Shown here in pieces: positions 5,413 through 58,806 of a DNA stretch of 64,000 nt; position 1 is the first letter of the stretch; each line of letters begins with the position of its first letter. The position numbers and the translations under genes are program-made. This DNA comes from a virus, in the IMG/VR virus record IMGVR_UViG_3300044716_000732, positions 1 to 64,000 of that record; one strand, given 5' to 3'. The notes under the pieces were generated by a model. That model did not search any database. It saw nothing but the letters and a program-made list of their open reading frames with translations, and had not been told where the DNA came from.

Positions 5413-6042
5413 TTATGTTACCAAATATTCTGTAAATGTCCACGAATTAGTTGATGAGTCAACTTTAAATTTCGCTATTCTTATTTCTTTTATGAAAACG
5501 TCTTTTTTTCTGCCAACAAAATTAAAAACTTTATTTACAATACCAAAATCAAAAGACTCTAATGTTACACTATTTTCACCAACATTATTACTATACAATA
5601 AAAATATAATATTGGCTATTGAATTAGAAGGAAAATTTTTTGCTGGATATAAAGAATTTAATTTATTTAAACCAAAAACACTCAATGTATCATTTGGATA
5701 ATTTACATCTATGTACATTTTTATAATTCCATCGGCTTGATATATATTAATTGGAAATGTAAAAGTTATTTCTCTTTTTTGCCAAGCACTACTTAAATAT
5801 TTTGTAGTGGTTGTAGCTAAATTAAAATTAGTAGGATATTCAAAGTAATCAGCAAATGCATTAAAATTACTTATATTTTCTGATAAATCAGAAAATCTTG
5901 AATAGAAATCATCCGGTTTTTGAAAAAATTGAGAGGATATATTGCATACATTTGTATCTAAAGATAATGTATTATAATTAATCTTACCTAAAGAATCTCC
6001 TACGCAATCACTTAAATTTATAATATTTATTAATTTATTCAT
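5413..6042 (-). CDS. putative virion/tail protein, paralog 3
   Basis: N-terminal DCVGDSLGKINYN motif shared with its neighbours; ATG at 6042. Confidence 0.7.
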   Translation of the reverse strand: MNKLINIINLSDCVGDSLGKINYNTLSLDTNVCNISSQFFQKPDDFYSRFSDLSENISNFNAFADYFEYPTNFNLATTTTKYLSSAWQKREITFTFPINIYQADGIIKMYIDVNYPNDTLSVFGLNKLNSLYPAKNFPSNSIANIIFLLYSNNVGENSVTLESFDFGIVNKVFNFVGRKKDVFIKEIRIAKFKVDSSTNSWTFTEYLVT

Positions 6043-20928: not shown

Positions 20929-20958
20929 GGTTCCCGATGATCCAGATAAAAAAATCGG
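20929..20958 (+). ncRNA. H-type pseudoknot leader element, copy 1
   Basis: GGTTC CCGAT GATCC ... ATCGG; recurs at 21747 and 53589. Confidence 0.6.
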
Positions 20959-21007
20959 AAATAGATATTTGAAATTTTAGATTGCGGGTTAGATAAATAG
21001 TTTATAT

Positions 21008-21089
21008 TGCAGAGTGTGAGAAGTGGTATCTCAGTGCGCTCATAACGCACCGCCCTTGCGCCTCGAAGGTTCGATTCCTTCCTCTGCTA
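21008..21089 (+). tRNA. tRNA-Met(CAT), atypical: 1:72 mismatch, 14-nt variable region, no CCA
   Basis: GCAGAG/CTCTGC acceptor, GTGCG-CTCATAA-CGCAC, GAAGG-TTCGATT-CCTTC. Confidence 0.8.
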
Positions 21090-21594
21090 TTTTGTTTTTG
21101 ATGATGGGTGATATTTTATTTTCAAATGCTTCATCTATAAGTTGCTTCTGTTTTTTTCTGCTGCTTATTTCTGAAACATTTATAACGAAAAAAGAATATT
21201 CCATATCAGATAATTCTTTAAATTTTAAACTATCTTTAAGTTTAACATCTTCAAGTTTTTTTTCTCCGAAAATAGGAAAATAATGAATAGGCCCATTGAC
21301 TTCTATGGCTAAAGATATTTCTGGAATGCAAATATCTATTTCAAGACCAGAAGATAATGTTTGCCTATCTGATTGAATGATCTTTAAAAAAGAGAATTCA
21401 TTCTCTATTTTAGAATAAAGATAATCTTCTGGAAAACTTATATTTCTTTTACAACCTTTATTGATATGGAAATTTTTATTAAAATATCTCATACGACAAG
21501 ATTTACTACAAAATCTTTTATTGTGTTTGGTTTTATTGTGTTTTCTATCTTTTAGAGGTTTAAAAAGTATATTACATTCTGGACAATTTATCAT
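21040..21594 (-). CDS. PD-(D/E)XK (Vsr/DUF559-like) putative homing endonuclease with N-terminal zinc finger
   Basis: CPEC...FCSKSC; LEIDICIPEISLAIEVNGPIHY; antisense within the tRNA cluster. Confidence 0.75.
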   Translation of the reverse strand: MINCPECNILFKPLKDRKHNKTKHNKRFCSKSCRMRYFNKNFHINKGCKRNISFPEDYLYSKIENEFSFLKIIQSDRQTLSSGLEIDICIPEISLAIEVNGPIHYFPIFGEKKLEDVKLKDSLKFKELSDMEYSFFVINVSEISSRKKQKQLIDEAFENKISPIIKNKIAEEGIEPSRRKGGAL

Positions 21595-21643
21595 ATGCTT
21601 ATGAATACTTACACTTACCATAAGCATTGTTTGAAATTTTTAT

Positions 21644-21726
21644 TCCTCGTTAGTAGAATTGGTAAATACACGGGACTGTTAATCCCGCGCAGCAATGCAC
21701 TCTTGGTTCAAGTCCAAGACGAGGAG
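21644..21726 (+). tRNA. tRNA-Asn(GTT) with long variable arm
   Basis: TCCTCGT/ACGAGGA; CGGGA-CTGTTAA-TCCCG; V-arm GCA-GCAA-TGC; G73. Confidence 0.9.
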
Positions 21727-21746
21727 CATCTTACAAAAGATAAAAA

Positions 21747-21776
21747 GGTTCTCGATGAGCCAGATAAAAAAATCGA
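21747..21776 (+). ncRNA. H-type pseudoknot element, copy 2
   Basis: GGTTC TCGAT GAGCC ... ATCGA (compensatory change relative to copy 1). Confidence 0.6.
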
Positions 21777-21785
21777 AAATATCTC

Positions 21786-21814
21786 TTGACCTTTTTAGAA
21801 ACAGGTGATAAGAT
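21786..21814 (+). promoter_or_regulatory. sigma70-type promoter for the second tRNA block
   Basis: TTGACC-17bp-TAAGAT with extended TG. Confidence 0.65.
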
Positions 21815-21892
21815 GGTGGAAGATTAGTAAAGGTTATCTGAACCTTGTAAAAACAATCAGAAAAGATTTTTGATAGAATTTGTATATTGTCT

Positions 21893-21978
21893 GACGATAT
21901 GGTGTAATGGCAGCCACAAGGGTCTTAAAAACCCTTGCTCGTAAGAGCGTGAGAGTTCGAGTCTCTCTATCGTCACCA
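21893..21978 (+). tRNA. tRNA-Leu(TAA)
   Basis: GACGATA/TATCGTC-A-CCA; AGGGT-CTTAAAA-ACCCT; long V arm. Confidence 0.95.
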
Positions 21979-21988
21979 GTTTTAAAAA

Positions 21989-22082
21989 GGGAGGTTAGTG
22001 TAATTGGAAGCACCGACAGACTTATAATCTGTGTTCCATAGATGTTGGACGAGCATGGGTTCGATTCCCATACCTCCTTCCA
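21989..22082 (+). tRNA. tRNA with TAT anticodon (nominal Ile), long variable arm, U73
   Basis: GGGAGGT/ACCTCCT-T-CCA; ACAGA-CTTATAA-TCTGT; ATGGG-TTCGATT-CCCAT. Confidence 0.85.
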
Positions 22083-22105
22083 CTTTGTAAATAGTTAATT
22101 TAGAC

Positions 22106-22178
<73 letters not shown>

Positions 22179-22184
22179 GATTTT

Positions 22185-22260
22185 GTATCGGTGGCGCAAT
22201 GGATAGCGCAAGCGGTTTCTACCCGTTAGGTTGGGGGTTCAAGTCCCTCCCGATACGCCA
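22185..22260 (+). tRNA. tRNA-Arg(TCT)
   Basis: GTATCGG/CCGATAC-G-CCA; AGCGG-TTTCTAC-CCGTT. Confidence 0.95.
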
Positions 22261-49294: not shown

Positions 49295-49810
49295 ATGAAA
49301 AAAGATGATATTTTATTGAACGAAGCCTATAACAAAGTAATTGAACAACAATTAGATGAAGATTTAGGTTCTTTTTTAAAAACAGTAGGTGGCGATGTGG
49401 TTAGAGGAATTGGTGGTGCTGCAAAGAAAGCAGTTTTGGGTACACAAAAAGCATATGCTGGTGCTAAACAAGCTGGTATTGGCGCACTTGCTGGCGCACA
49501 AGGTAAAGATCCTCGTTCTTTAGCGAACTATAACAAGCAATCACAAATTAAAGGTGAACTTACAAAAAAACAAAATGAAATAGATAGTCAATACACAGCA
49601 CAAAGATTGACACAATATTTAAATAGTATGTTAACTGGTGTTGTAAGAGACGTTAAAAATTTAGGATTAGGTGTTGAAGATCTAGATGGTTTGAAGCAAG
49701 ATTTATTCGCTACTTTTAAAAAACATTTACAACAATCAGGAACAATTCAATCAGCAGGAACAGGATTGGTTCGTTCTGGAAGTAAGGGTGCAGTAAAATT
49801 AAATAAATAA
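49295..49810 (+). CDS. hypothetical protein with KDDILLNEAY tag
   Basis: TATAAATA at 49281; Gly/Ala-rich. Confidence 0.7.
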   Translation: MKKDDILLNEAYNKVIEQQLDEDLGSFLKTVGGDVVRGIGGAAKKAVLGTQKAYAGAKQAGIGALAGAQGKDPRSLANYNKQSQIKGELTKKQNEIDSQYTAQRLTQYLNSMLTGVVRDVKNLGLGVEDLDGLKQDLFATFKKHLQQSGTIQSAGTGLVRSGSKGAVKLNK

Positions 49811-50298: not shown

Positions 50299-51309
50299 AT
50301 GAAACTCGCATCAATTGAAATCATAAAAAATATAAAAATTCACCCTAATGCGGATTCTTTAGAAATCGCAGAAGTTTTGGGCTGGCAGACAGTGGTAAAA
50401 AAAGGAATCCACAAAGAGGGAGATAAGGTTGTTTTTATTACGATTGATACTATTGTTCCTCGTCGGGAATGGTCTGAATTTTTGGTAGATCAAAAAAATC
50501 CAGATAAGCCTATTAGATTAAAAAACATAAAGCTTCGTGGAGAATATAGTTCTGGTTTGGTTATTCCTTTGATTGAATTTCCTTTACAATTCGAATCTCT
50601 AGATGTTGGTGATGATGTAACAGAAATACTTGGTATTCAAAAGTATGTAAAGGAAATCCCTGCTAATCTTTCTGGTGAAACATTAGGAGATTTTCCCACA
50701 AATATCATCTCAAAAACAGATGAAGACAATGGTTTGAATGATCCCAAGTTGGTTGATGAAGTGTTTAAAGTTGATAAAGAACTTACGATAAGTCTAAAAA
50801 TAGATGGATCTTCTTGTACTTTAATAGTAGAAGATGGAAAATTGATACAAGTTTGTAGTAGAAATCTTTCTAAAAAAGAAACTGAAAATTCTACATTTTG
50901 GAATGCAGCAAAAAAATTAAATATACCAGAAAATTGGACGGGCGTCATACAATCGGAAATGGCGGGTAATGGAATACAATGTAACAATTTAAAAATCAAC
51001 GAGATAAAATTATTTGTATTTCAAATTTATACTGATAATAAATATATGACATATGATGAAATGAAGCAATTTTGTGATAATCATTTAAAATGCGATGTTG
51101 TTCCATTGATTTGTAAACTTAAAATAGAAGATACAATAAATCTTTGGACGGATCCTTTAAAGAAATTACAAGAATTGGCAGATAAACAAAAATATTCAAG
51201 CGGACTTGATGCGGAGGGAATTGTTGTAAGACCCTCTAGTTATATCAAATCTAGAAATTCTAGAAGACCATTAGGATTCAAATTGATAAACAGAAATTAT
51301 AAAGATTAA
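50299..51309 (+). CDS. RNA ligase, DRB0094/Rnl5 family
   Basis: MKLASI...HPNAD.LE, LRGEYSSGL, KTDE, KIDGSS, EGIVVR, FKLIN. Confidence 0.88.
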   Translation: MKLASIEIIKNIKIHPNADSLEIAEVLGWQTVVKKGIHKEGDKVVFITIDTIVPRREWSEFLVDQKNPDKPIRLKNIKLRGEYSSGLVIPLIEFPLQFESLDVGDDVTEILGIQKYVKEIPANLSGETLGDFPTNIISKTDEDNGLNDPKLVDEVFKVDKELTISLKIDGSSCTLIVEDGKLIQVCSRNLSKKETENSTFWNAAKKLNIPENWTGVIQSEMAGNGIQCNNLKINEIKLFVFQIYTDNKYMTYDEMKQFCDNHLKCDVVPLICKLKIEDTINLWTDPLKKLQELADKQKYSSGLDAEGIVVRPSSYIKSRNSRRPLGFKLINRNYKD

Positions 51310-53168: not shown

Positions 53169-53543
53169 ATGAAAAACAAAGATCAAATATTACTGGAACA
53201 AGCATATTCAAAAATTTTAAATGAAAATTTAGATAAATTTCAACCACATGATCCGGAAATGCAAGAATTATCTAAAGTAGGTCTTGGTGAAGAATATCCA
53301 GAAGATGAGAACGTTTCCTCTGATGATAGAAATTGGTATTTCGATGAAGATGGACAACCACCATATAATGTAAAATATTCTAATAGAACGTTTAATATTA
53401 GAGGTAAAGAAGTATTGATCAAACAAGAAATGGATCAAGACGATGATAGTAGGTGGTATTATATTTCTCTTGTTGATCCAGAAACAAAAGAACGTGTTTT
53501 TAATGATGTTACAGAAGATCAAATCAAAAAAATGTTTTTTTGA
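53169..53543 (+). CDS. hypothetical protein with KDQILLE tag
   Basis: MKNKDQILLEQAYSKILNE. Confidence 0.7.
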   Translation: MKNKDQILLEQAYSKILNENLDKFQPHDPEMQELSKVGLGEEYPEDENVSSDDRNWYFDEDGQPPYNVKYSNRTFNIRGKEVLIKQEMDQDDDSRWYYISLVDPETKERVFNDVTEDQIKKMFF

Positions 53544-53546
53544 TTG

Positions 53547-53575
53547 TTGACATTTTTGAAAAAATAATATATAGT
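53547..53575 (+). promoter_or_regulatory. sigma70-type promoter of the ncRNA/tmRNA operon
   Basis: TTGACA-17bp-TATAGT. Confidence 0.75.
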
Positions 53576-53588
53576 CTTTATTAGATAG

Positions 53589-53642
53589 TTGGTTCCCGAT
53601 GAGCCAATGGGACTGAGAATACTCGGTCGAATACAAAATCGG
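53589..53642 (+). ncRNA. H-type pseudoknot element, copy 3 (hairpin inserted in loop 3)
   Basis: TTGGTTC CCGAT GAGCCAA, GACTGAG-AATA-CTCGGTC, ATCGG. Confidence 0.65.
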
Positions 53643-53673
53643 AAATTGATATTTGACATTTTAATTTTAGTAG

Positions 53674-53753
53674 ACCCGCCATGCCTCTCACTTGACATGA
53701 GTAGTTTCTAAAGTACACGGCAACTAAGTAAGTTGATGCACACTTTGGCGGGT
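53674..53753 (+). ncRNA. structured ncRNA A (unknown)
   Basis: ACCCGCCA/TGGCGGGT closing stem; internal hairpins CTCA/TGAG and CAACT/AGTTG. Confidence 0.6.
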
Positions 53754-53760
53754 GTTTCTT

Positions 53761-53916
53761 TTACCAAGCGCAGATGCTCGCAAAGCTCTACCGCGATGGG
53801 TGACAATGCAATGTTTCCGGAAACAACATTTAACCCATAGGGAACTTCTTCGATTATTATGTATGCGTCCATAAGATACTTGGAGGACTAATGATTAGAA
53901 TGAGAGGTCTTGGTAA
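53761..53916 (+). ncRNA. structured ncRNA B (unknown)
   Basis: TTACCAAG/CTTGGTAA closing stem; internal ATGGGT/ACCCAT and GTCC/GGAC stems. Confidence 0.5.
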
Positions 53917-53927
53917 TGATTTTAAAA

Positions 53928-54113
53928 ACTGGAATGTTGGTTTAGAAAACCATCATCTAAGGAGTGGGAGATTGGACGTGGAGAACTGGTAATTAGTATG
54001 GACACAATTCAAATAAGCCATACATCCTATTTATAGGTACGGAGATGACCGTGAATTGCGTTTCACAGGACGAAGAAATTCGTAACCCCTTTAGCTTTAA
54101 AAGGCACACCAGT
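53928..54113 (+). ncRNA. ncRNA C: mimic of the 23S rRNA GTPase-associated centre (H42-H44) with an insertion
   Basis: ACTGGAATGTTGGTTTAGAAAACCATCATCTAAGGAGT...GCACACCAGT aligns to E. coli 23S 1051-1108 with compensatory changes. Confidence 0.75.
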
Positions 54114-54125
54114 AAAATTTTGATA

Positions 54126-54266
54126 AGTCGGACGGGAATAGTGTGCTGTGCTGTTCTTAAAAAGCTCACCGTTGCAGACTGTCACCAGACTCGATTAGGC
54201 AGAGGGTAACAAGTAATCTTCGTCCAACGTGAGAAAAACACGGTAGCCAATGAAGAACTTTCTGGT
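54126..54266 (+). ncRNA. structured ncRNAs D/E (unknown)
   Basis: AGTC/GACT and ACGG/CCGT stems (54126-54180); ACCAGA/TCTGGT stem (54184-54266). Confidence 0.4.
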
Positions 54267-54285
54267 AATGATCTTTGAAATTTAT

Positions 54286-54696
54286 GGGGGTGAAAGGATT
54301 CGACATTGGATTCTAACTTCTCAGTGCATGTAGAGGATGATAGTTGGCCTCTTTAATAATCTATCAAAAACTAAATGCAGAAGACAATACTTCTGATCTT
54401 TTAGACGAAGCTGAATACATCTTCAACAATGCTGACGAGTTCCTCGCTGGCGTTGAAGACTACGCACTCGCCGCCTAAGAGCCTAACGGTAATCCTCTAA
54501 ATCCGTTTTGAATTGCAGAGGTTTTGACGATCTGTTAGAAATCATGTAAAAAATATTACGGAGTTTGTTGTAACTTTAAAACATCAAGGTTGGTTAATGT
54601 GCCAAGATACCTTATAAATCAAATACATTAAAGCATGTGTAGATCTGAAAGTAAACGTTTAATGGACACGACTATCGTATGTCGTCACCTCCACCA
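54286..54696 (+). ncRNA. ssrA: tmRNA
   Basis: GGGGGTGAAAGGATTCGAC 5' end; CACCTCC-A-CCA 3' end with G3:U; tag ORF 54377-54478 ending YALAA*. Confidence 0.95.
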
Positions 54697-54701
54697 TTTT
54701 T

Positions 54702-54789
54702 GGGTAGATAGACTCGTAAGGGGCGAGAATTGGCTGTAGACCAATTGTTATTTTTAACCCTGTCCGTTCGAATCGGACTCTGCCCACCA
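54702..54789 (+). tRNA. tRNA-Tyr(GTA)
   Basis: GGGTAGA/TCTGCCC-A-CCA; ATTGG-CTGTAGA-CCAAT; long V region. Confidence 0.9.
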
Positions 54790-54796
54790 TTTATAA

Positions 54797-54871
54797 GTCT
54801 CTATAGTGTAACGGTTAGCACAGTACCCTTTCACGGTATTAGTATCGGTTCAAATCCGTTTAGAGATGCCA
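54797..54871 (+). tRNA. tRNA-Glu(TTC)
   Basis: GTCTCTA/TAGAGAT-G-CCA; GTACC-CTTTCAC-GGTAT. Confidence 0.9.
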
Positions 54872-54890
54872 AATTTTGCGGAGTCGAACC

Positions 54891-54931
54891 AAACCCCTTT
54901 GGGCTACCAACCTAGAGGGGTTTATTTATTT
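54891..54931 (+). terminator. terminator of the ncRNA operon
   Basis: AAACCCCTTTGG...CTAGAGGGGTTT plus T-rich tail. Confidence 0.7.
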
Positions 54932-54953
54932 AAAATAAAGATAAATATTTTAT

Positions 54954-55553
54954 ATGAAAAAGTTATTTTTATTTTGTTCTATTTTATTATTTTTAAACAG
55001 CTGTACTGTTTATACAGAAAAACAATCTGAAGCATTATCTCGTTCCGTTTATGCTACCAAAGATTCTTTAGACAACGCAAGATTAGACTTAGCCGATACC
55101 TATGCTAATGAATCAACAAGAATAGTAAAACCACCTAAACAAAGAATAGATATTAAACCTGTTTATAAAAAGAATATTGATAATATTTCAAGTCAAAGCA
55201 AAGTAAAACCAACAATTATAAACAAACAAAGAGTTTTAATAATACCCGAAAAATATAAAAACGATACGGTTGTTGTTGTAAGCTCCGAAGAATATCAACA
55301 ACTCTTAAAAGATAAAGAAACATACGAACAAATAGAAAAAGATATTGCAAATATAACAGAAACAAAAATAGCAGTAGATCAGGAATTGATTCGTCAAATG
55401 GAATATAATGATAAAATGGTTAGAGATTTGAATATAATGCAGAAAAAATTGATAGAAAAAGATCTTGCGATTTTACAAAGAAATATTGCAATAATATTTT
55501 TACTTGTTATAATGGGTGGAGCAACTTATCTAAGAATAAAAGGAATACTCTAA
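54954..55553 (+). CDS. lipoprotein with C-terminal TM helix (candidate unimolecular spanin)
   Basis: MKK-hydrophobic-LNSC lipobox-like; C-terminal IAIIFLLVIMGGATYL. Confidence 0.6.
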   Translation: MKKLFLFCSILLFLNSCTVYTEKQSEALSRSVYATKDSLDNARLDLADTYANESTRIVKPPKQRIDIKPVYKKNIDNISSQSKVKPTIINKQRVLIIPEKYKNDTVVVVSSEEYQQLLKDKETYEQIEKDIANITETKIAVDQELIRQMEYNDKMVRDLNIMQKKLIEKDLAILQRNIAIIFLLVIMGGATYLRIKGIL

Positions 55554-57812: not shown

Positions 57813-58100
57813 ATGGAAAATATTATTGAAGAAATTACAAAATTGACTGTTGAGTGGAGGTCTTTGAGTGGGAAAGGTCATTGTAAAGATAAAGATTTTC
57901 ATTGGTATATAGAAACCAAATGGAGTTATGGTCAACCTCCAAAATATAGTGTGCAACATCACGGTTACATTTTACACGATTTTGAGGAAATAGAATGTAG
58001 TTCTTATGAAGAAGCATTGACTGTTTTGAGAGATACTTTAAAAGAAAAAATAGAAGAAGAAAAGAAATTACAAAAAGAAAACGAAGAAAATGAATGGTAA
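57813..58100 (+). CDS. hypothetical protein
   Basis: ORF in operon. Confidence 0.65.
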   Translation: MENIIEEITKLTVEWRSLSGKGHCKDKDFHWYIETKWSYGQPPKYSVQHHGYILHDFEEIECSSYEEALTVLRDTLKEKIEEEKKLQKENEENEW

Positions 58101-58101
58101 T

Positions 58102-58806
58102 ATGAAAACATTAAACAAAAACAAACCTTTATTATTTTTAGGAGATCATCATGGAGATTGGCGATTTCTTTTTGATATCATCAGAGAAAAGAATATTGAA
58201 AATTGCAATATTATTTCTGTTGGAGATCTTGGTATAGGGTTTAAATATAAAAAAGAATCCGAATATTCTCAATCAGAGAAACTTAGCAACATGTTCAAAG
58301 AAAAAAACATCAATTTTTATGGTATTCCGGGGAATCATGATAATAGATTCTTTTTTGAAGGAAAAAATAGAATTGTCTATGAAAATTTTGAACTAATTGA
58401 AGATTATACTGTTGCAGAATATGATGGCAAATCTATTCAATTTATTGGCGGTGCTGTTTCTATTGATAGAACTTCTCGTAAAGAAGGTGTTTCATATTGG
58501 GAAGACGAAGCTGTTAAATTAGATAGAGATAAATGCAAAGAAGTTGATATTCTTGTAACCCATACTGCTCCGTCTTGGTGTTTTCCACAACAGTTTAATG
58601 AAATGGTTTATGGTTGGGCATTAGAGGACGCATATCTTATAGGAGATCTTAGTAATGAAAGAGCAATAATGGATGAGATTTTTAAACTATGTAAACCAAA
58701 ACTTCATTTATATGGTCATTTCCATAGTTCTTGGACTGAAGAGATTAATGAATGTAAACACAAACTATTGAATATTAATGAAATTTGGGAGATGCGTAAT
58801 GATTAG
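58102..58806 (+). CDS. calcineurin-like metallophosphoesterase
   Basis: GDHHG, VGD.G, GNHD, GGA.SID, THTAP, GHFH. Confidence 0.88.
   Translation: MKTLNKNKPLLFLGDHHGDWRFLFDIIREKNIENCNIISVGDLGIGFKYKKESEYSQSEKLSNMFKEKNINFYGIPGNHDNRFFFEGKNRIVYENFELIEDYTVAEYDGKSIQFIGGAVSIDRTSRKEGVSYWEDEAVKLDRDKCKEVDILVTHTAPSWCFPQQFNEMVYGWALEDAYLIGDLSNERAIMDEIFKLCKPKLHLYGHFHSSWTEEINECKHKLLNINEIWEMRND

What the first reader, a model, noticed from the sequence alone, without database searches (positions are those of the whole stretch)
53547..54931. A 1.4-kb all-RNA operon: pseudoknot leader, 4-5 unknown closed-stem RNAs, tmRNA and tRNAs
Seen: one promoter (53547) and one terminator (54891) enclose an ORF-free, GC-enriched block. 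It parses into consecutive units, each closed by a terminal helix: 53674-53753 (ACCCGCCA/TGGCGGGT), 53761-53916 (TTACCAAG/CTTGGTAA), 53928-54113, 54126-54180 and 54184-54266 (ACCAGA/TCTGGT). Short spacers separate them, like a tRNA array. Unit 54126-54180 (ACGG-GAATAG..CTGTTC-TTAAAAAG-CTCA-CCGT) weakly echoes the same rRNA three-way junction. Inference: a polycistronic precursor processed into several translation-related phage RNAs, none of which I recognise as a named family.
Basis: partly seen in the sequence, partly recalled or inferred. Interest (0 to 1): 0.8.

Follow-up and report, generated by a model that had tools for sequence, protein, structure and literature searches.

The report
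Phage operon of shuffled structured RNAs
A large lake phage has one gene-free operon that carries a ribosome-rescue RNA, two tRNAs and five conserved folded RNAs that related phages swap like cassettes; one of these copies the ribosomal RNA site that binds protein uL11, and what any of them does is untested.

Summary
Window 53547-54931 runs from a promoter to a terminator with no ORF of 60 aa or more, and its G+C is raised. It holds a leader, five helix-closed units (A, B, C, D1, D2), a tmRNA, tRNA-Tyr and tRNA-Glu. In some relatives a tRNA sits in the same slot.

- **Structure:** B, C and D have compensatory base changes supporting their folds.
- **Expression:** contigs from 4 RNA libraries of 4 studies cover units A to D.
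- **Rfam:** it names only the tmRNA and one tRNA (ARAGORN finds both tRNAs).
- **Unit C:** a stand-alone copy of the 23S rRNA GTPase-associated centre (H42-H44) with an insert of about 126 nt. I also found this family in gut-metagenome tRNA arrays.
- **Unit A:** resembles the abiF antitoxin hairpin but scores below Rfam's threshold, and no AbiF gene is present.
- **Unit D1:** its "echo" of the rRNA site is at chance level.
- **Unit D2:** the constant unit just upstream of the tmRNA.

My reading is an rrn-style stable-RNA operon of separate RNAs, some of them molecular mimics. Function and RNA ends are untested.

This scan had already noted the rRNA-mimic family, and a related "five shuffled modules" locus, on other DNA. 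My two searches of the held paper library found no published description.

The parts
53547..53575 (+). sigma-70-type promoter, TTGACA-17-TATAGT
   Evidence: 11 of 12 matches. Both hexamers are conserved in 6 of 6 aligned relatives.
53589..53643 (+). Leader element: stem TTGG/CCAA, a loop whose CCGAT can pair with ATCGG downstream (pseudoknot), and a variable hairpin at 53611-53629 in the linker
   Evidence: The motif occurs 3 times in the window (20929, 21747, 53591) against 0 expected. One compensatory change supports the loop-tail pairing, in the 21747 copy. The linker hairpin differs in sequence but still pairs across relatives, and is absent from the two other copies in the window. No Rfam match, PreQ1 included.
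53648..53661 (+). Box GATATTTGACATTT (boxA-like), copy 1
   Evidence: There are 3 exact matches in the window (20964, 53648, 54270), all inside RNA clusters. It matches E. coli rrn boxA at 9 of 13 positions. That boxA was located in the rrnH leader and spacer. Any function is inferred.
53674..53753 (+). Unit A: long hairpin whose base resembles the abiF RNA motif, with a 47-nt insert in the loop
   Evidence: Rfam abiF RF03085 scores 29.8 bits (gathering score 37, E 0.0068). Three divergent homologues reach 26.9-28.1 bits. Of 20 predicted pairs, 4 carry compensatory changes. Found in 31 of 86 loci.
53761..53916 (+). Unit B: cloverleaf-like four-way junction. It has an 8-bp closing helix, two extended arms, a 5-nt linker AGGGA, and a 5-bp arm next to the 3' strand of the closing helix; that arm carries a variable extension at 53849-53905
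   Evidence: 17 sequences and 36 pairs; 97.7% of cells paired; 7 pairs with changes on both sides (4 of 500 shuffles reach this). The extension is deleted in 3 of the 17 relatives and shortened in 4. Found in 33 of 86 loci.
53928..54113 (+). Unit C: free-standing copy of the 23S rRNA GTPase-associated centre (H42, H43, junction, H44-like hairpin), with an insert of about 126 nt made of several hairpins
   Evidence: Details are in the full report.
54122..54183 (+). Unit D1: stem GATA/TGTC, stem GTC/GAC, an internal loop, stem ACGG/CCGT, then a 7-bp hairpin and an unpaired TTAAAAAGCTCA
   Evidence: The ACGG/CCGT helix has 2 covarying pairs in four combinations. It is replaced by an unrelated 5' domain in 10 more distant loci. 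Its sequence likeness to 23S is at chance level.
54184..54266 (+). Unit D2: three-way junction RNA and the most conserved unit. In most loci that hold both it ends 18-105 nt before the tmRNA
   Evidence: 42 distinct sequences with 90% mean column identity. Helices covary. The covariance model scores 113 bits here and finds no second copy in the window or in 15 other loci. The pattern is absent from 185,579 species genomes.
54270..54283 (+). Box GATCTTTGAAATTT (boxA-like), copy 2, directly before the tmRNA
   Evidence: It is also present before the tmRNA in L003, L006 and L007 and in L059 and L078.
54286..54696 (+). tmRNA, with the tag reading frame at 54377-54478 (33 residues ending YALAA)
   Evidence: Rfam RF00023 scores 100.1 bits over the full model. 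ARAGORN did not call it.
54702..54789 (+). tRNA-Tyr (GTA)
   Evidence: ARAGORN. Not listed by Rfam.
54797..54871 (+). tRNA-Glu (TTC)
   Evidence: ARAGORN. Rfam tRNA 61.1 bits at 54797-54868.
54891..54933 (+). Intrinsic terminator: a 13-bp stem followed by a T-rich tail

Best explanation
This is a stable-RNA operon of a lake phage of about 200 kb, built much like a bacterial rRNA operon.

Shown:
- One strong promoter and one terminator enclose a leader, five separately evolving structured RNA modules (A, B, C, D1, D2), a tmRNA and two tRNAs.
- Related phages gain, lose, duplicate and reorder the modules. tRNA genes occupy the same slots.
- B, C and D have covariation-supported folds.
- RNA-library contigs cover A to D.
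- Unit C is a copy of the 23S rRNA domain that binds uL11 and the stalk base. It belongs to a wider family found in tRNA arrays.

Inferred:
- The host RNA polymerase makes one long untranslated transcript.
- The leader structure and the boxA-like boxes keep that transcript from being terminated early.
- Host tRNA-processing enzymes cut it at the helix-closed, partly tRNA-shaped units, releasing separate stable RNAs.
- These RNAs act away from the ribosome as imitations. C would bind a protein or toxin that normally recognises the GTPase-associated centre. A would bind an AbiF-type toxin in the way its antitoxin RNA does. B and D2, which are tRNA-shaped, would engage tRNA- or tmRNA-handling factors.
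- The net effect would be to keep translation running in an infected cell whose RNA-directed defences are active.
For: Operon frame.

Conservation and modularity: nhmmer found D in 70, the leader in 61, tmRNA in 48, B in 33, A in 31 and C in 30 of the 86 loci searched. Many of these loci are the same contig held in two collections. Architectures include leader-A-B-C-D-tm, leader-D-tm, A-C-D, A-B-D, B-D, C-B-D, B-C-B-D, and D2 with a different 5' domain. Of the 31 distinct spacer inserts, some are tRNA-Thr or tRNA-Ala, and two further unknown families have 9 and 7 distinct members.

Structure:
- D: 98.5% of cells paired; 19 cells with changes on both sides (0 of 500 shuffles reach this).
- B: 97.7% paired; 7 compensatory pairs (4 of 500).
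- C: 99.3% paired; 6 compensatory pairs (3 of 500).

RNA libraries: all 4 RNA runs laid, from 4 studies, give contigs on A to D. One 733-nt contig spans 53662-54256. Near-identical contigs at depth 64-80 cover A-B and C-D-tmRNA.

Unit C as an rRNA copy:
- The best local match of the whole operon to E. coli rRNA is 23S 1057-1088, 26 of 32 identical, E 0.009.
- A profile of C against the rRNA operon gives E 2e-4.
- The 58-nt E. coli domain aligns to unit C at 46 of 58 (z 8.4) in relative L025 and 42 of 56 (z 4.5) in the window.
- A 21-nt stretch of the L025-type unit C (the window's copy differs in it) is identical to real 23S genes, and also to 7 free-standing elements in gut metagenome-assembled genome (MAG) contigs.
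- Of those 7, 5 lie in loci with tRNA arrays, and one also has a tmRNA.
- The closing helix covaries across these elements.

Unit A: abiF hits at 26.9-29.8 bits in 4 divergent copies. The abiF motif is the RNA antitoxin of the AbiF toxin (PMC12373285, passages read). There is no Abi_2 gene in this record or in a complete 203-kb relative.

Neighbourhood: an RNA ligase gene lies 2.2 kb upstream.
Against: - No RNA 5' or 3' ends are mapped. Contigs cannot show ends, strand or level, and DNA can be present in RNA libraries.
- The relatives are close (81-93% mean column identity), so the compensatory changes are few events inherited by several sequences.
- The whole-region fold is no more stable than shuffles.
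- A's likeness to abiF is below Rfam's gathering score, and A has one motif where the studied antitoxin has two.
- In the window's own copy of C, both loops that face translation factors on the ribosome are altered, so it may not bind what the real domain binds.
- D1's likeness to rRNA is at chance level.
- No uL11, uL10, bL12, AbiF or Ro-like gene is present in the phage to suggest a partner.
- The host is unknown.
- The antitermination role of the leader and boxes rests on a 9-of-13 likeness and on position only.
Confidence: 0.6

Rival explanations
1. A to D form one large ornate non-coding RNA, in the manner of the phage-associated GOLLD or ROOL RNAs. It would have a constant 3' domain (D2) and a variable 5' part, and would work as a single particle.
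For: The units abut with spacers of 0-12 nt. One RNA-library contig spans 53662-54256. The order A-B-C-D is the commonest. GOLLD and ROOL lie near tRNAs in phages (recalled, not from a call).
Against: Units occur without their neighbours, in other orders and duplicated, and tRNAs sit between them in some relatives. Each unit is closed by its own helix. No GOLLD or ROOL match appears even at E up to 10.
Confidence: 0.12
2. The units are RNA partners or scaffolds of phage proteins (ribonucleoprotein particles), not decoys for host factors.
For: In a Prevotella MAG contig, a free-standing copy of the same rRNA domain lies about 400 nt upstream of a TROVE (Ro-like) gene. Most proteins near the operon match no family.
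Against: No TROVE or DUF2828 gene is present in this record, or in the 4 relatives searched, one of them a complete 203-kb genome. No protein gene travels with the modules across architectures: small ORFs are found between D and the tmRNA in only some relatives.
Confidence: 0.2
3. A to D are a long cis-acting leader that controls transcription or processing of the tmRNA and tRNAs, in a riboswitch-like or attenuator-like way.
For: They lie between the promoter and the tmRNA. D2 is usually just upstream of the tmRNA.
Against: Many relatives have the leader followed directly by D, or D2 alone, so A, B and C are dispensable for tmRNA expression. L025 and L041 carry leader-A-B-C with no D detected. 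No riboswitch family matches.
Confidence: 0.05
4. The block is decayed sequence: a dead gene, or scraps of captured host rRNA without function.
For: Unit C derives from, or copies, rRNA sequence.
Against: There is 81-93% column identity across dozens of contigs from many lake samples, with compensatory changes. There is no ORF remnant. RNA-library contigs are present.
Confidence: 0.03

Closest known systems
Phage T4 tRNA cluster with the small stable RNAs RNAC and RNAD
   Same: Unnamed stable RNAs are co-located with phage tRNA genes. Their function is still unknown (PMC9697503, passage read).
   Different: Here there are five units plus a tmRNA, a dedicated leader, and cassette-like shuffling. 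blastn of 53540-54300 against 50,697 phage records found no match, so no sequence relation is detectable.
GTPase-associated centre of bacterial 23S rRNA (H42-H44, E. coli 1051-1108)
   Same: Unit C keeps the closing helix, the H43 sequence, the junction and an H44-like hairpin in the same order. uL10 anchors the stalk to this region of 23S rRNA and uL11 binds the same region (PMC1635324, start of abstract seen).
   Different: Unit C is free-standing, not part of an rRNA. It is interrupted by an insert of about 126 nt. In the window's copy the H43 loop is 2 nt shorter and the H44 loop is rebuilt.
abiF RNA motif (Rfam RF03085), the RNA antitoxin of the AbiF toxin (RCd22 of C. difficile)
   Same: The base of unit A has the same stem sequence CCCGCC/GGCGGG, the bulged A, a 3-bp inner stem and the CUCUCA loop start.
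   Different: The score is below the gathering score. The loop carries 47 extra nt. Unit A has one motif rather than two, and no AbiF gene is nearby or in a complete relative.
Pseudo-ToxI of phage PhiTE: a phage RNA that imitates an antitoxin RNA to escape abortive infection
   Same: It is a precedent for a phage-encoded RNA mimic that neutralises an RNA-binding toxin (PMC3475682, search listing and start of abstract seen).
   Different: A different toxin family is involved. The role of unit A is only inferred.
Bacterial rrn operons with boxA antitermination signals in the leader and spacer
   Same: A strong promoter drives a long untranslated transcript of stable RNAs. A conserved box follows a leader structure and recurs before the second large RNA. 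The E. coli boxA sites were located.
   Different: The box matches at only 9 of 13 positions. It also recurs before single tRNA genes. Binding of NusB and S10 is untested.
GOLLD and ROOL large phage-associated RNAs; bacterial Y RNAs
   Same: They are structured RNAs of unknown or partly known role near tRNA genes in phages. Y RNAs mimic tRNAs (PMC4201824, title and start of abstract seen).
   Different: There is no Rfam match to GOLLD, ROOL or YrlA in the operon. The present units are separable.

Membership tests
tmRNA (RF00023) | Full-length match over the gathering score, with a tRNA-like acceptor end and a tag reading frame | tested here: met
   100.1 bits against 47, model positions 1-374. 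The tag is 33 residues ending YALAA with a stop.
tRNA | Cloverleaf with an anticodon, called by ARAGORN or Rfam | tested here: met
   ARAGORN calls tRNA-Tyr and tRNA-Glu. Rfam lists tRNA-Glu at 61.1 bits but not tRNA-Tyr.
abiF RNA (RF03085) | Score at or above Rfam's gathering score of 37 bits | tested here: not met
   29.8 bits in the window. 28.1, 26.9 and 26.9 bits in three relatives.
abiF RNA (RF03085) | Lies upstream of an AbiF (Abi_2) gene | tested here: not met
   No PF07751 match in this record or in 4 relatives, including a complete 203-kb genome.
abiF RNA (RF03085) | Binds and neutralises AbiF | not testable with these tools
   This needs a co-expression assay.
23S rRNA GTPase-associated centre (as a fold) | Closing helix H42 pairs the two ends | tested here: met
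   5 pairs, 100% paired in 14 sequences. The helix covaries across the lake and gut members.
23S rRNA GTPase-associated centre (as a fold) | H43 stem and loop sequence | tested here: met
   26 of 32 identical to E. coli in the window. Two compensatory pairs are seen in 3 sequences. The window's loop is 2 nt shorter than the rRNA loop.
23S rRNA GTPase-associated centre (as a fold) | H44 hairpin with the rRNA loop sequence | tested here: inconclusive
   Relatives L025 and L049 keep a near-rRNA hairpin. The window has a different, longer loop.
23S rRNA GTPase-associated centre (as a fold) | Binds uL11, the stalk base or thiopeptides | not testable with these tools
   This needs binding assays.
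LSU rRNA gene (RF02541) | Is part of a full rRNA gene | tested here: not met
   Only model positions 1083-1154 align, at 7.6 bits. There is no rRNA gene in the window.
GOLLD / ROOL | Match to the Rfam model | tested here: not met
   No match at E up to 10 in 53400-55000 or in 53915-54275.
PreQ1-I riboswitch (leader) | Match to the Rfam model | tested here: not met
   No match at E up to 10 for any of the three leader copies. The likeness in architecture is recalled only.
rrn boxA | Sequence close to TGCTCTTTAACAA, placed after a leader structure and in a spacer | tested here: inconclusive
   9 of 13 positions match, and the placement fits. Binding of Nus factors is not testable here.
T4 RNAC / RNAD | Sequence relation | tested here: not met
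   No blastn match of 53540-54300 in the phage collection.

The most novel reading that the evidence does not exclude
The operon is a battery of RNA decoys. The phage floods the cell with imitations of RNA targets and RNA antitoxins: an rRNA GTPase-centre copy, an AbiF-antitoxin look-alike, and tRNA-shaped units. It delivers them together with spare tRNAs and its own tmRNA. RNA-directed host toxins and modifying enzymes would then be soaked up, or kept switched off, while translation continues. The cassettes would be exchanged between phages as the hosts' defences change.
Probability: 0.3. Interest if true: 0.9.

Novelty: new variant of a known kind. Interest (0 to 1): 0.7.

Why it matters
Phage tRNA clusters are usually read as codon-supply devices. 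This locus shows that the same slots also carry a set of other structured RNAs that are conserved, exchanged between phages and represented in RNA libraries.

At least one of them copies a functional centre of the ribosome, and another resembles an antitoxin RNA. If they act as mimics, this would be an RNA-based layer of phage takeover or counter-defence. The only tested precedent I know is the pseudo-ToxI RNA.

The locus also supplies five compact RNA folds with defined boundaries for structural and binding studies. D2's consistent position next to the tmRNA raises a testable link to ribosome rescue.

Tried and rejected
- **Sarcin-ricin loop inside unit C.** Window 54037-54069 aligns with 23S 2655-2686, and 53973-53988 with 2622-2638. 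Their scores (13 and 12) equal those of plainly unrelated matches. The tetraloop register also does not fit. Rejected.
- **Unit B as an rRNA mimic.** The B profile hits 23S 1523-1595 at E 0.047, but the hairpins differ. Rejected as chance.
- **D1 as a second copy of the rRNA site.** Its best score is tied with other 23S windows and is below the mean of shuffles. Only the stem, internal-loop and junction layout is alike.
- **Ribosomal or partner proteins in the phage.** No L11, L10, L12, Abi_2, TROVE or DUF2828 match in this 43%-complete record. Four relatives, one of them a complete genome, were searched for L11, L12, Abi_2, TROVE and DUF2828 with no match. L10 was searched in this record only.
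- **Cultured phages.** blastn of the free-standing element of L094 against the phage collection gave only 23S sequence inside phage records. The Paenibacillus phage hit lies in an unannotated stretch of about 3.4 kb that looks like a whole rRNA gene.
- **D2 elsewhere.** The D2 covariance model found nothing beyond the window's own copy in the window and 15 other loci, the 7 gut loci among them.
- **Depth in RNA libraries.** In run X11 the contigs on the operon have depth 64-105, and the two contigs on the flanking genes have depth 2 and 4.1. The latter differ from the window at 20-21 letters, so they come from relatives. Contig depth and uncovered stretches cannot rank expression, so I do not use this as evidence. 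Adapter-flanked contig ends at 53882 and 53979 fall inside units and were not read as RNA ends.
- **Papers.** Two searches for a phage-encoded mimic of this rRNA domain listed nothing on it. That covers only the held library, and supplements were not consulted.
- **Host.** The 21-mer shared with rRNA occurs in scattered lineages and names no host.
Full report
**1. What is in the sequence**

The window comes from an 87-kb virus record judged 43% complete. Public runs that hold the stretch are lake and freshwater metagenomes. A relative carrying the same operon is a 202,880-bp record with terminal repeats, rated complete.

- A consensus promoter, TTGACA-17-TATAGT, lies at 53547-53575.
- A 13-bp terminator hairpin with a T tail lies at 54891-54923.
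- No ORF of 60 aa or more lies inside 53576-54285 on either strand.
- G+C is 0.37-0.44 inside the block, against 0.18-0.31 around it.

Rfam finds a full-length tmRNA at 54286-54696 (100.1 bits) and a tRNA at 54797-54868. ARAGORN finds tRNA-Tyr at 54702-54789 and tRNA-Glu at 54797-54871, but not the tmRNA. The tmRNA tag frame reads 33 residues ending in YALAA.

Between the promoter and the tmRNA, Rfam names nothing at its thresholds. At E up to 10 the only notable match is abiF RNA at 53675-53753, with 29.8 bits against a gathering score of 37. The minimum-free-energy fold of the whole 710 nt is no more stable than shuffles, z = -0.40. The case for structure therefore rests on comparison with relatives.

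**2. Relatives and modularity**

I gathered relatives in four ways:
- The upstream ORF led to 13 viral loci. Rfam found a tmRNA downstream of the match in four of them, and tRNAs but no tmRNA downstream in a fifth.
- A leader pattern found 29 viral loci.
- Two 18-mers, from D and from C, added four loci.
- A D pattern found 40 metagenome loci, and none in one genome for each of 185,579 prokaryote species.

Many loci are the same contig held in two collections. I therefore also give counts of distinct sequences.

| Module | Loci with a hit (of 86) | Distinct sequences |
|---|---|---|
| D | 70 | 46 |
| leader | 61 | 42 |
| tmRNA | 48 | 35 |
| B | 33 | 24 |
| A | 31 | 18 |
| C | 30 | 21 |

These counts come from nhmmer profiles of each unit.

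Observed architectures are:
- leader-A-B-C-D-tmRNA, the commonest;
- leader-D-tmRNA;
- A-C-D, with no B;
- A-B-D, with no C;
- B-D;
- C-B-D;
- B-C-B-D.

In 10 more distant loci, D2 follows an unrelated 5' domain. L025 and L041 have leader-A-B-C and no D.

The spacers hold 31 distinct inserts of 45-400 nt. Among them are tRNA-Thr, tRNA-Ala and an undetermined tRNA. Two further unknown families have 9 and 7 distinct members. The units thus behave like genes in a tRNA array, not like domains of one RNA.

**3. Folds**

| Unit | Sequences | Pairs | Cells paired | When partners are slid | Pairs changed on both sides | Shuffles reaching the covariation score |
|---|---|---|---|---|---|---|
| D | 20 | 41 | 98.5% | 38-51% | 5 | 0 of 500 |
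| B | 17 | 36 | 97.7% | 38-44% | 7 (4 of 500 shuffles reach this) | 0 of 500 |
| C | 15 | 51 | 99.3% | 33-43% | 6 (3 of 500 shuffles reach this) | 0 of 500 |

- **D.** For the count of pairs changed on both sides, 78 of 500 shuffles reach the observed 5. The helix ACGG/CCGT occurs in four paired combinations.
- **B.** It folds as a four-way junction. An 8-bp closing helix encloses two extended arms, a 5-nt linker, and a 5-bp arm that abuts the 3' strand of the closing helix. This is the layout of a tRNA without tRNA sequence marks. B's variable extension is deleted in 3 of the 17 relatives and shortened in 4.
- **A.** 4 of its 20 predicted pairs carry compensatory changes.
- **Leader.** The motif recurs at 20929, 21747 and 53591, each at the head of an RNA cluster, against 0 copies expected by chance. 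The loop-tail pairing has one compensatory change, in the copy at 21747. The 25 orthologues were fetched with a pattern that fixes those bases, so they say nothing on this point. A hairpin in the linker varies in sequence, keeps pairing, and is absent from the two other copies.

The relatives are close, at 81-93% column identity. These counts therefore reflect few independent events.

**4. Unit C is a copy of a ribosomal RNA domain**

An earlier first-reader note on this window (e1-6136337) gave me the lead, and I tested it.

The match to E. coli rRNA:
- I fetched E. coli rrnH. The best local match of the whole operon to it is 23S 1057-1088: 26 of 32 identical, E 0.009.
- A profile of unit C gives E 2e-4 at 23S 1054-1090.
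- Rfam's bacterial LSU model aligns 53919-54118 to positions 1083-1154, with 138 nt set aside as an insert. After that penalty the score is only 7.6 bits, E 3.9.
- Aligning the 58-nt E. coli domain to unit C, with a long gap allowed, gives 46 of 58 identities in relative L025 (z 8.4 against 500 shuffles), 42 of 58 in L049 (z 7.0), and 42 of 56 in the window (z 4.5).
- The H43-like helix has two compensatory pairs.
- In the window's subtype the H43 loop is 2 nt shorter and the H44-like loop is different. In L025 and L049 both loops are close to rRNA.

The wider family:
- A 21-nt stretch of the L025 type occurs in 20 loci of the genome collection.
- I ran six of these through Rfam. Three are true LSU genes. 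One, L094 from a Prevotella MAG, is an isolated 74-nt match to LSU positions 1082-1155 at 60.6 bits. Two gave no LSU match.
- From the printed flanks I count 13 true rRNA sites and 7 free-standing elements.
- Four of the free-standing elements lack the insert.
- Three (L097, L099, L107) carry an insert at the same place as unit C, of 130-285 nt.
- Five of the 7 loci hold tRNA arrays. In L107 the element lies between tRNA-Met and tRNA-Val, with a tmRNA 1.2 kb further on.
- The closing helix covaries among them.

This scan had already noted the family in at least 20 other genomes. My route to it was independent of those notes. My two searches of the held paper library found no description.

**5. 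Units A, D1 and D2**

- **A.** Its base reproduces the abiF motif: the same outer stem sequence, the bulged A, the 3-bp inner stem and the start of the loop, with 47 extra nt in the loop. Three divergent homologues reach 26.9-28.1 bits. The abiF motif is the RNA that binds and neutralises the AbiF toxin; the studied antitoxin carries two motifs (PMC12373285, passages read). No AbiF gene is present in this record or in a complete relative. If the likeness is real, A would be an orphan antitoxin-like RNA.
- **D1.** It has a layout like the base of the rRNA domain: a 3-bp stem, a 2-by-4 internal loop, a 4-bp stem and a junction. By sequence it is no closer to that site than to other parts of 23S or than shuffles are.
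- **D2.** It is the most conserved unit, with 42 distinct sequences at 90% column identity and many invariant unpaired bases. In most loci that hold both it ends 18-105 nt before the tmRNA. I could not assign it. Its closing helix, a 3-bp hairpin with a GG-containing 9-nt loop, and a long arm next to the 3' strand give it a tRNA-like outline. That reading is recalled knowledge of tRNA form and is not tested.

**6. Expression**

Of 24 runs listed as holding the stretch, 6 are on record as RNA libraries. I laid four of those, from four studies, and all four give contigs on A to D:
- one 733-nt contig covers 53662-54256;
- in run X11, near-identical contigs of depth 79.6 and 64.4 cover 53666-53882 and 53979-54459.

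Contigs cannot show ends, strand or level, and DNA can be present in such libraries. This is presence in RNA libraries, not proof of processing.

**7. How it most likely works**

The design parallels an rRNA operon: a strong promoter, a leader structure, a conserved box, stable RNAs with short spacers, and a terminator.
- The box (53648 and 54270) matches E. coli boxA at 9 of 13 positions.
- E. coli has boxA both in the rrn leader and in the spacer.
- I recall that the rrn boxA of low-G+C Gram-positive bacteria is closer still, but I did not test that.
- The box also precedes single tRNA genes at 21630 and 21865. It may instead be a processing signal.

Release of the units by tRNA-processing enzymes is inferred from their closed, partly tRNA-like shapes and from tRNAs sharing their slots. 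For the RNAs themselves I favour mimicry:
- C imitates the site that anchors uL11 and the stalk (PMC1635324, start of abstract seen). A bacterial toxin is known to modify that site at helix 44 (PMC8661411, passages read).
- A imitates an antitoxin RNA. The precedent is a phage RNA mimic of the ToxI antitoxin (PMC3475682, start of abstract seen).
- An RNA ligase gene 2.2 kb upstream, the phage's own tmRNA and its spare tRNAs fit a theme of keeping translation alive under RNA-directed attack.

None of this is tested. The window's own copy of C has altered loops, which weakens a simple decoy reading for this subtype.

**8. Verdict**

Relative to published knowledge, the closest thing is the T4 tRNA cluster with RNAC and RNAD, whose functions are still unknown (PMC9697503). 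The present locus is a richer, modular variant that includes an rRNA-domain copy.

Within this scan, a related locus was already described as five shuffled modules (e1-5648093), and the rRNA-mimic family has been noted many times.

Noticed in passing
window 20929-22260: A second RNA region holds two more copies of the leader motif (20929, 21747) and six tRNA genes. Several of these are unusually long for their type: Met 84 nt, Asn 84 nt and Ile 94 nt. Rfam places the extra bases in the variable region.
   Followed up: partly
window 21100-21600, - strand: A gap of about 550 nt between tRNA-Met and tRNA-Asn looks coding on the minus strand. It may be a small gene inserted in the tRNA cluster.
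   Followed up: no
window 53169-53543 and 49295-49810; L003 7236-7465; L007 6677-6895: Small ORFs share an N-terminal MK.KDQ..LE.AY-type start. In L003 and L007 such ORFs sit between unit D and the tmRNA. Earlier notes of this scan read this start as a packaging tag.
   Followed up: no
window 50299-51309 and 58090-58806: An RNA ligase (PF09414, with an OB-fold domain) and a metallophosphoesterase flank the RNA operon at 2-3 kb. This is a possible RNA-repair pair.
   Followed up: partly
L094 3476-7092: In a Prevotella MAG contig an isolated 74-nt copy of the 23S uL11-binding domain (5861-5935) lies between a WYL regulator, a SIR2 protein and an AAA ATPase on one side and a TROVE (Ro-like) gene on the other. 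This looks like a defence or RNA-quality-control island with its own rRNA-domain RNA.
   Followed up: partly
L074 365-554, - strand: A group I intron match (57 bits, gathering score 50) lies in a distant relative's locus, about 560 nt from its tRNA genes and 760 nt from its tmRNA.
   Followed up: no
window 54377-54478: The phage tmRNA tag is 33 residues, which by my recollection is about three times the usual length. RNA-library contigs from relatives diverge within the tag near 54460.
   Followed up: no
window 53662-53666: Contigs from two RNA libraries carry unrelated sequence upstream of this point. It coincides with the leader/unit A boundary, so it is a likely recombination joint between cassettes.
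   Followed up: partly
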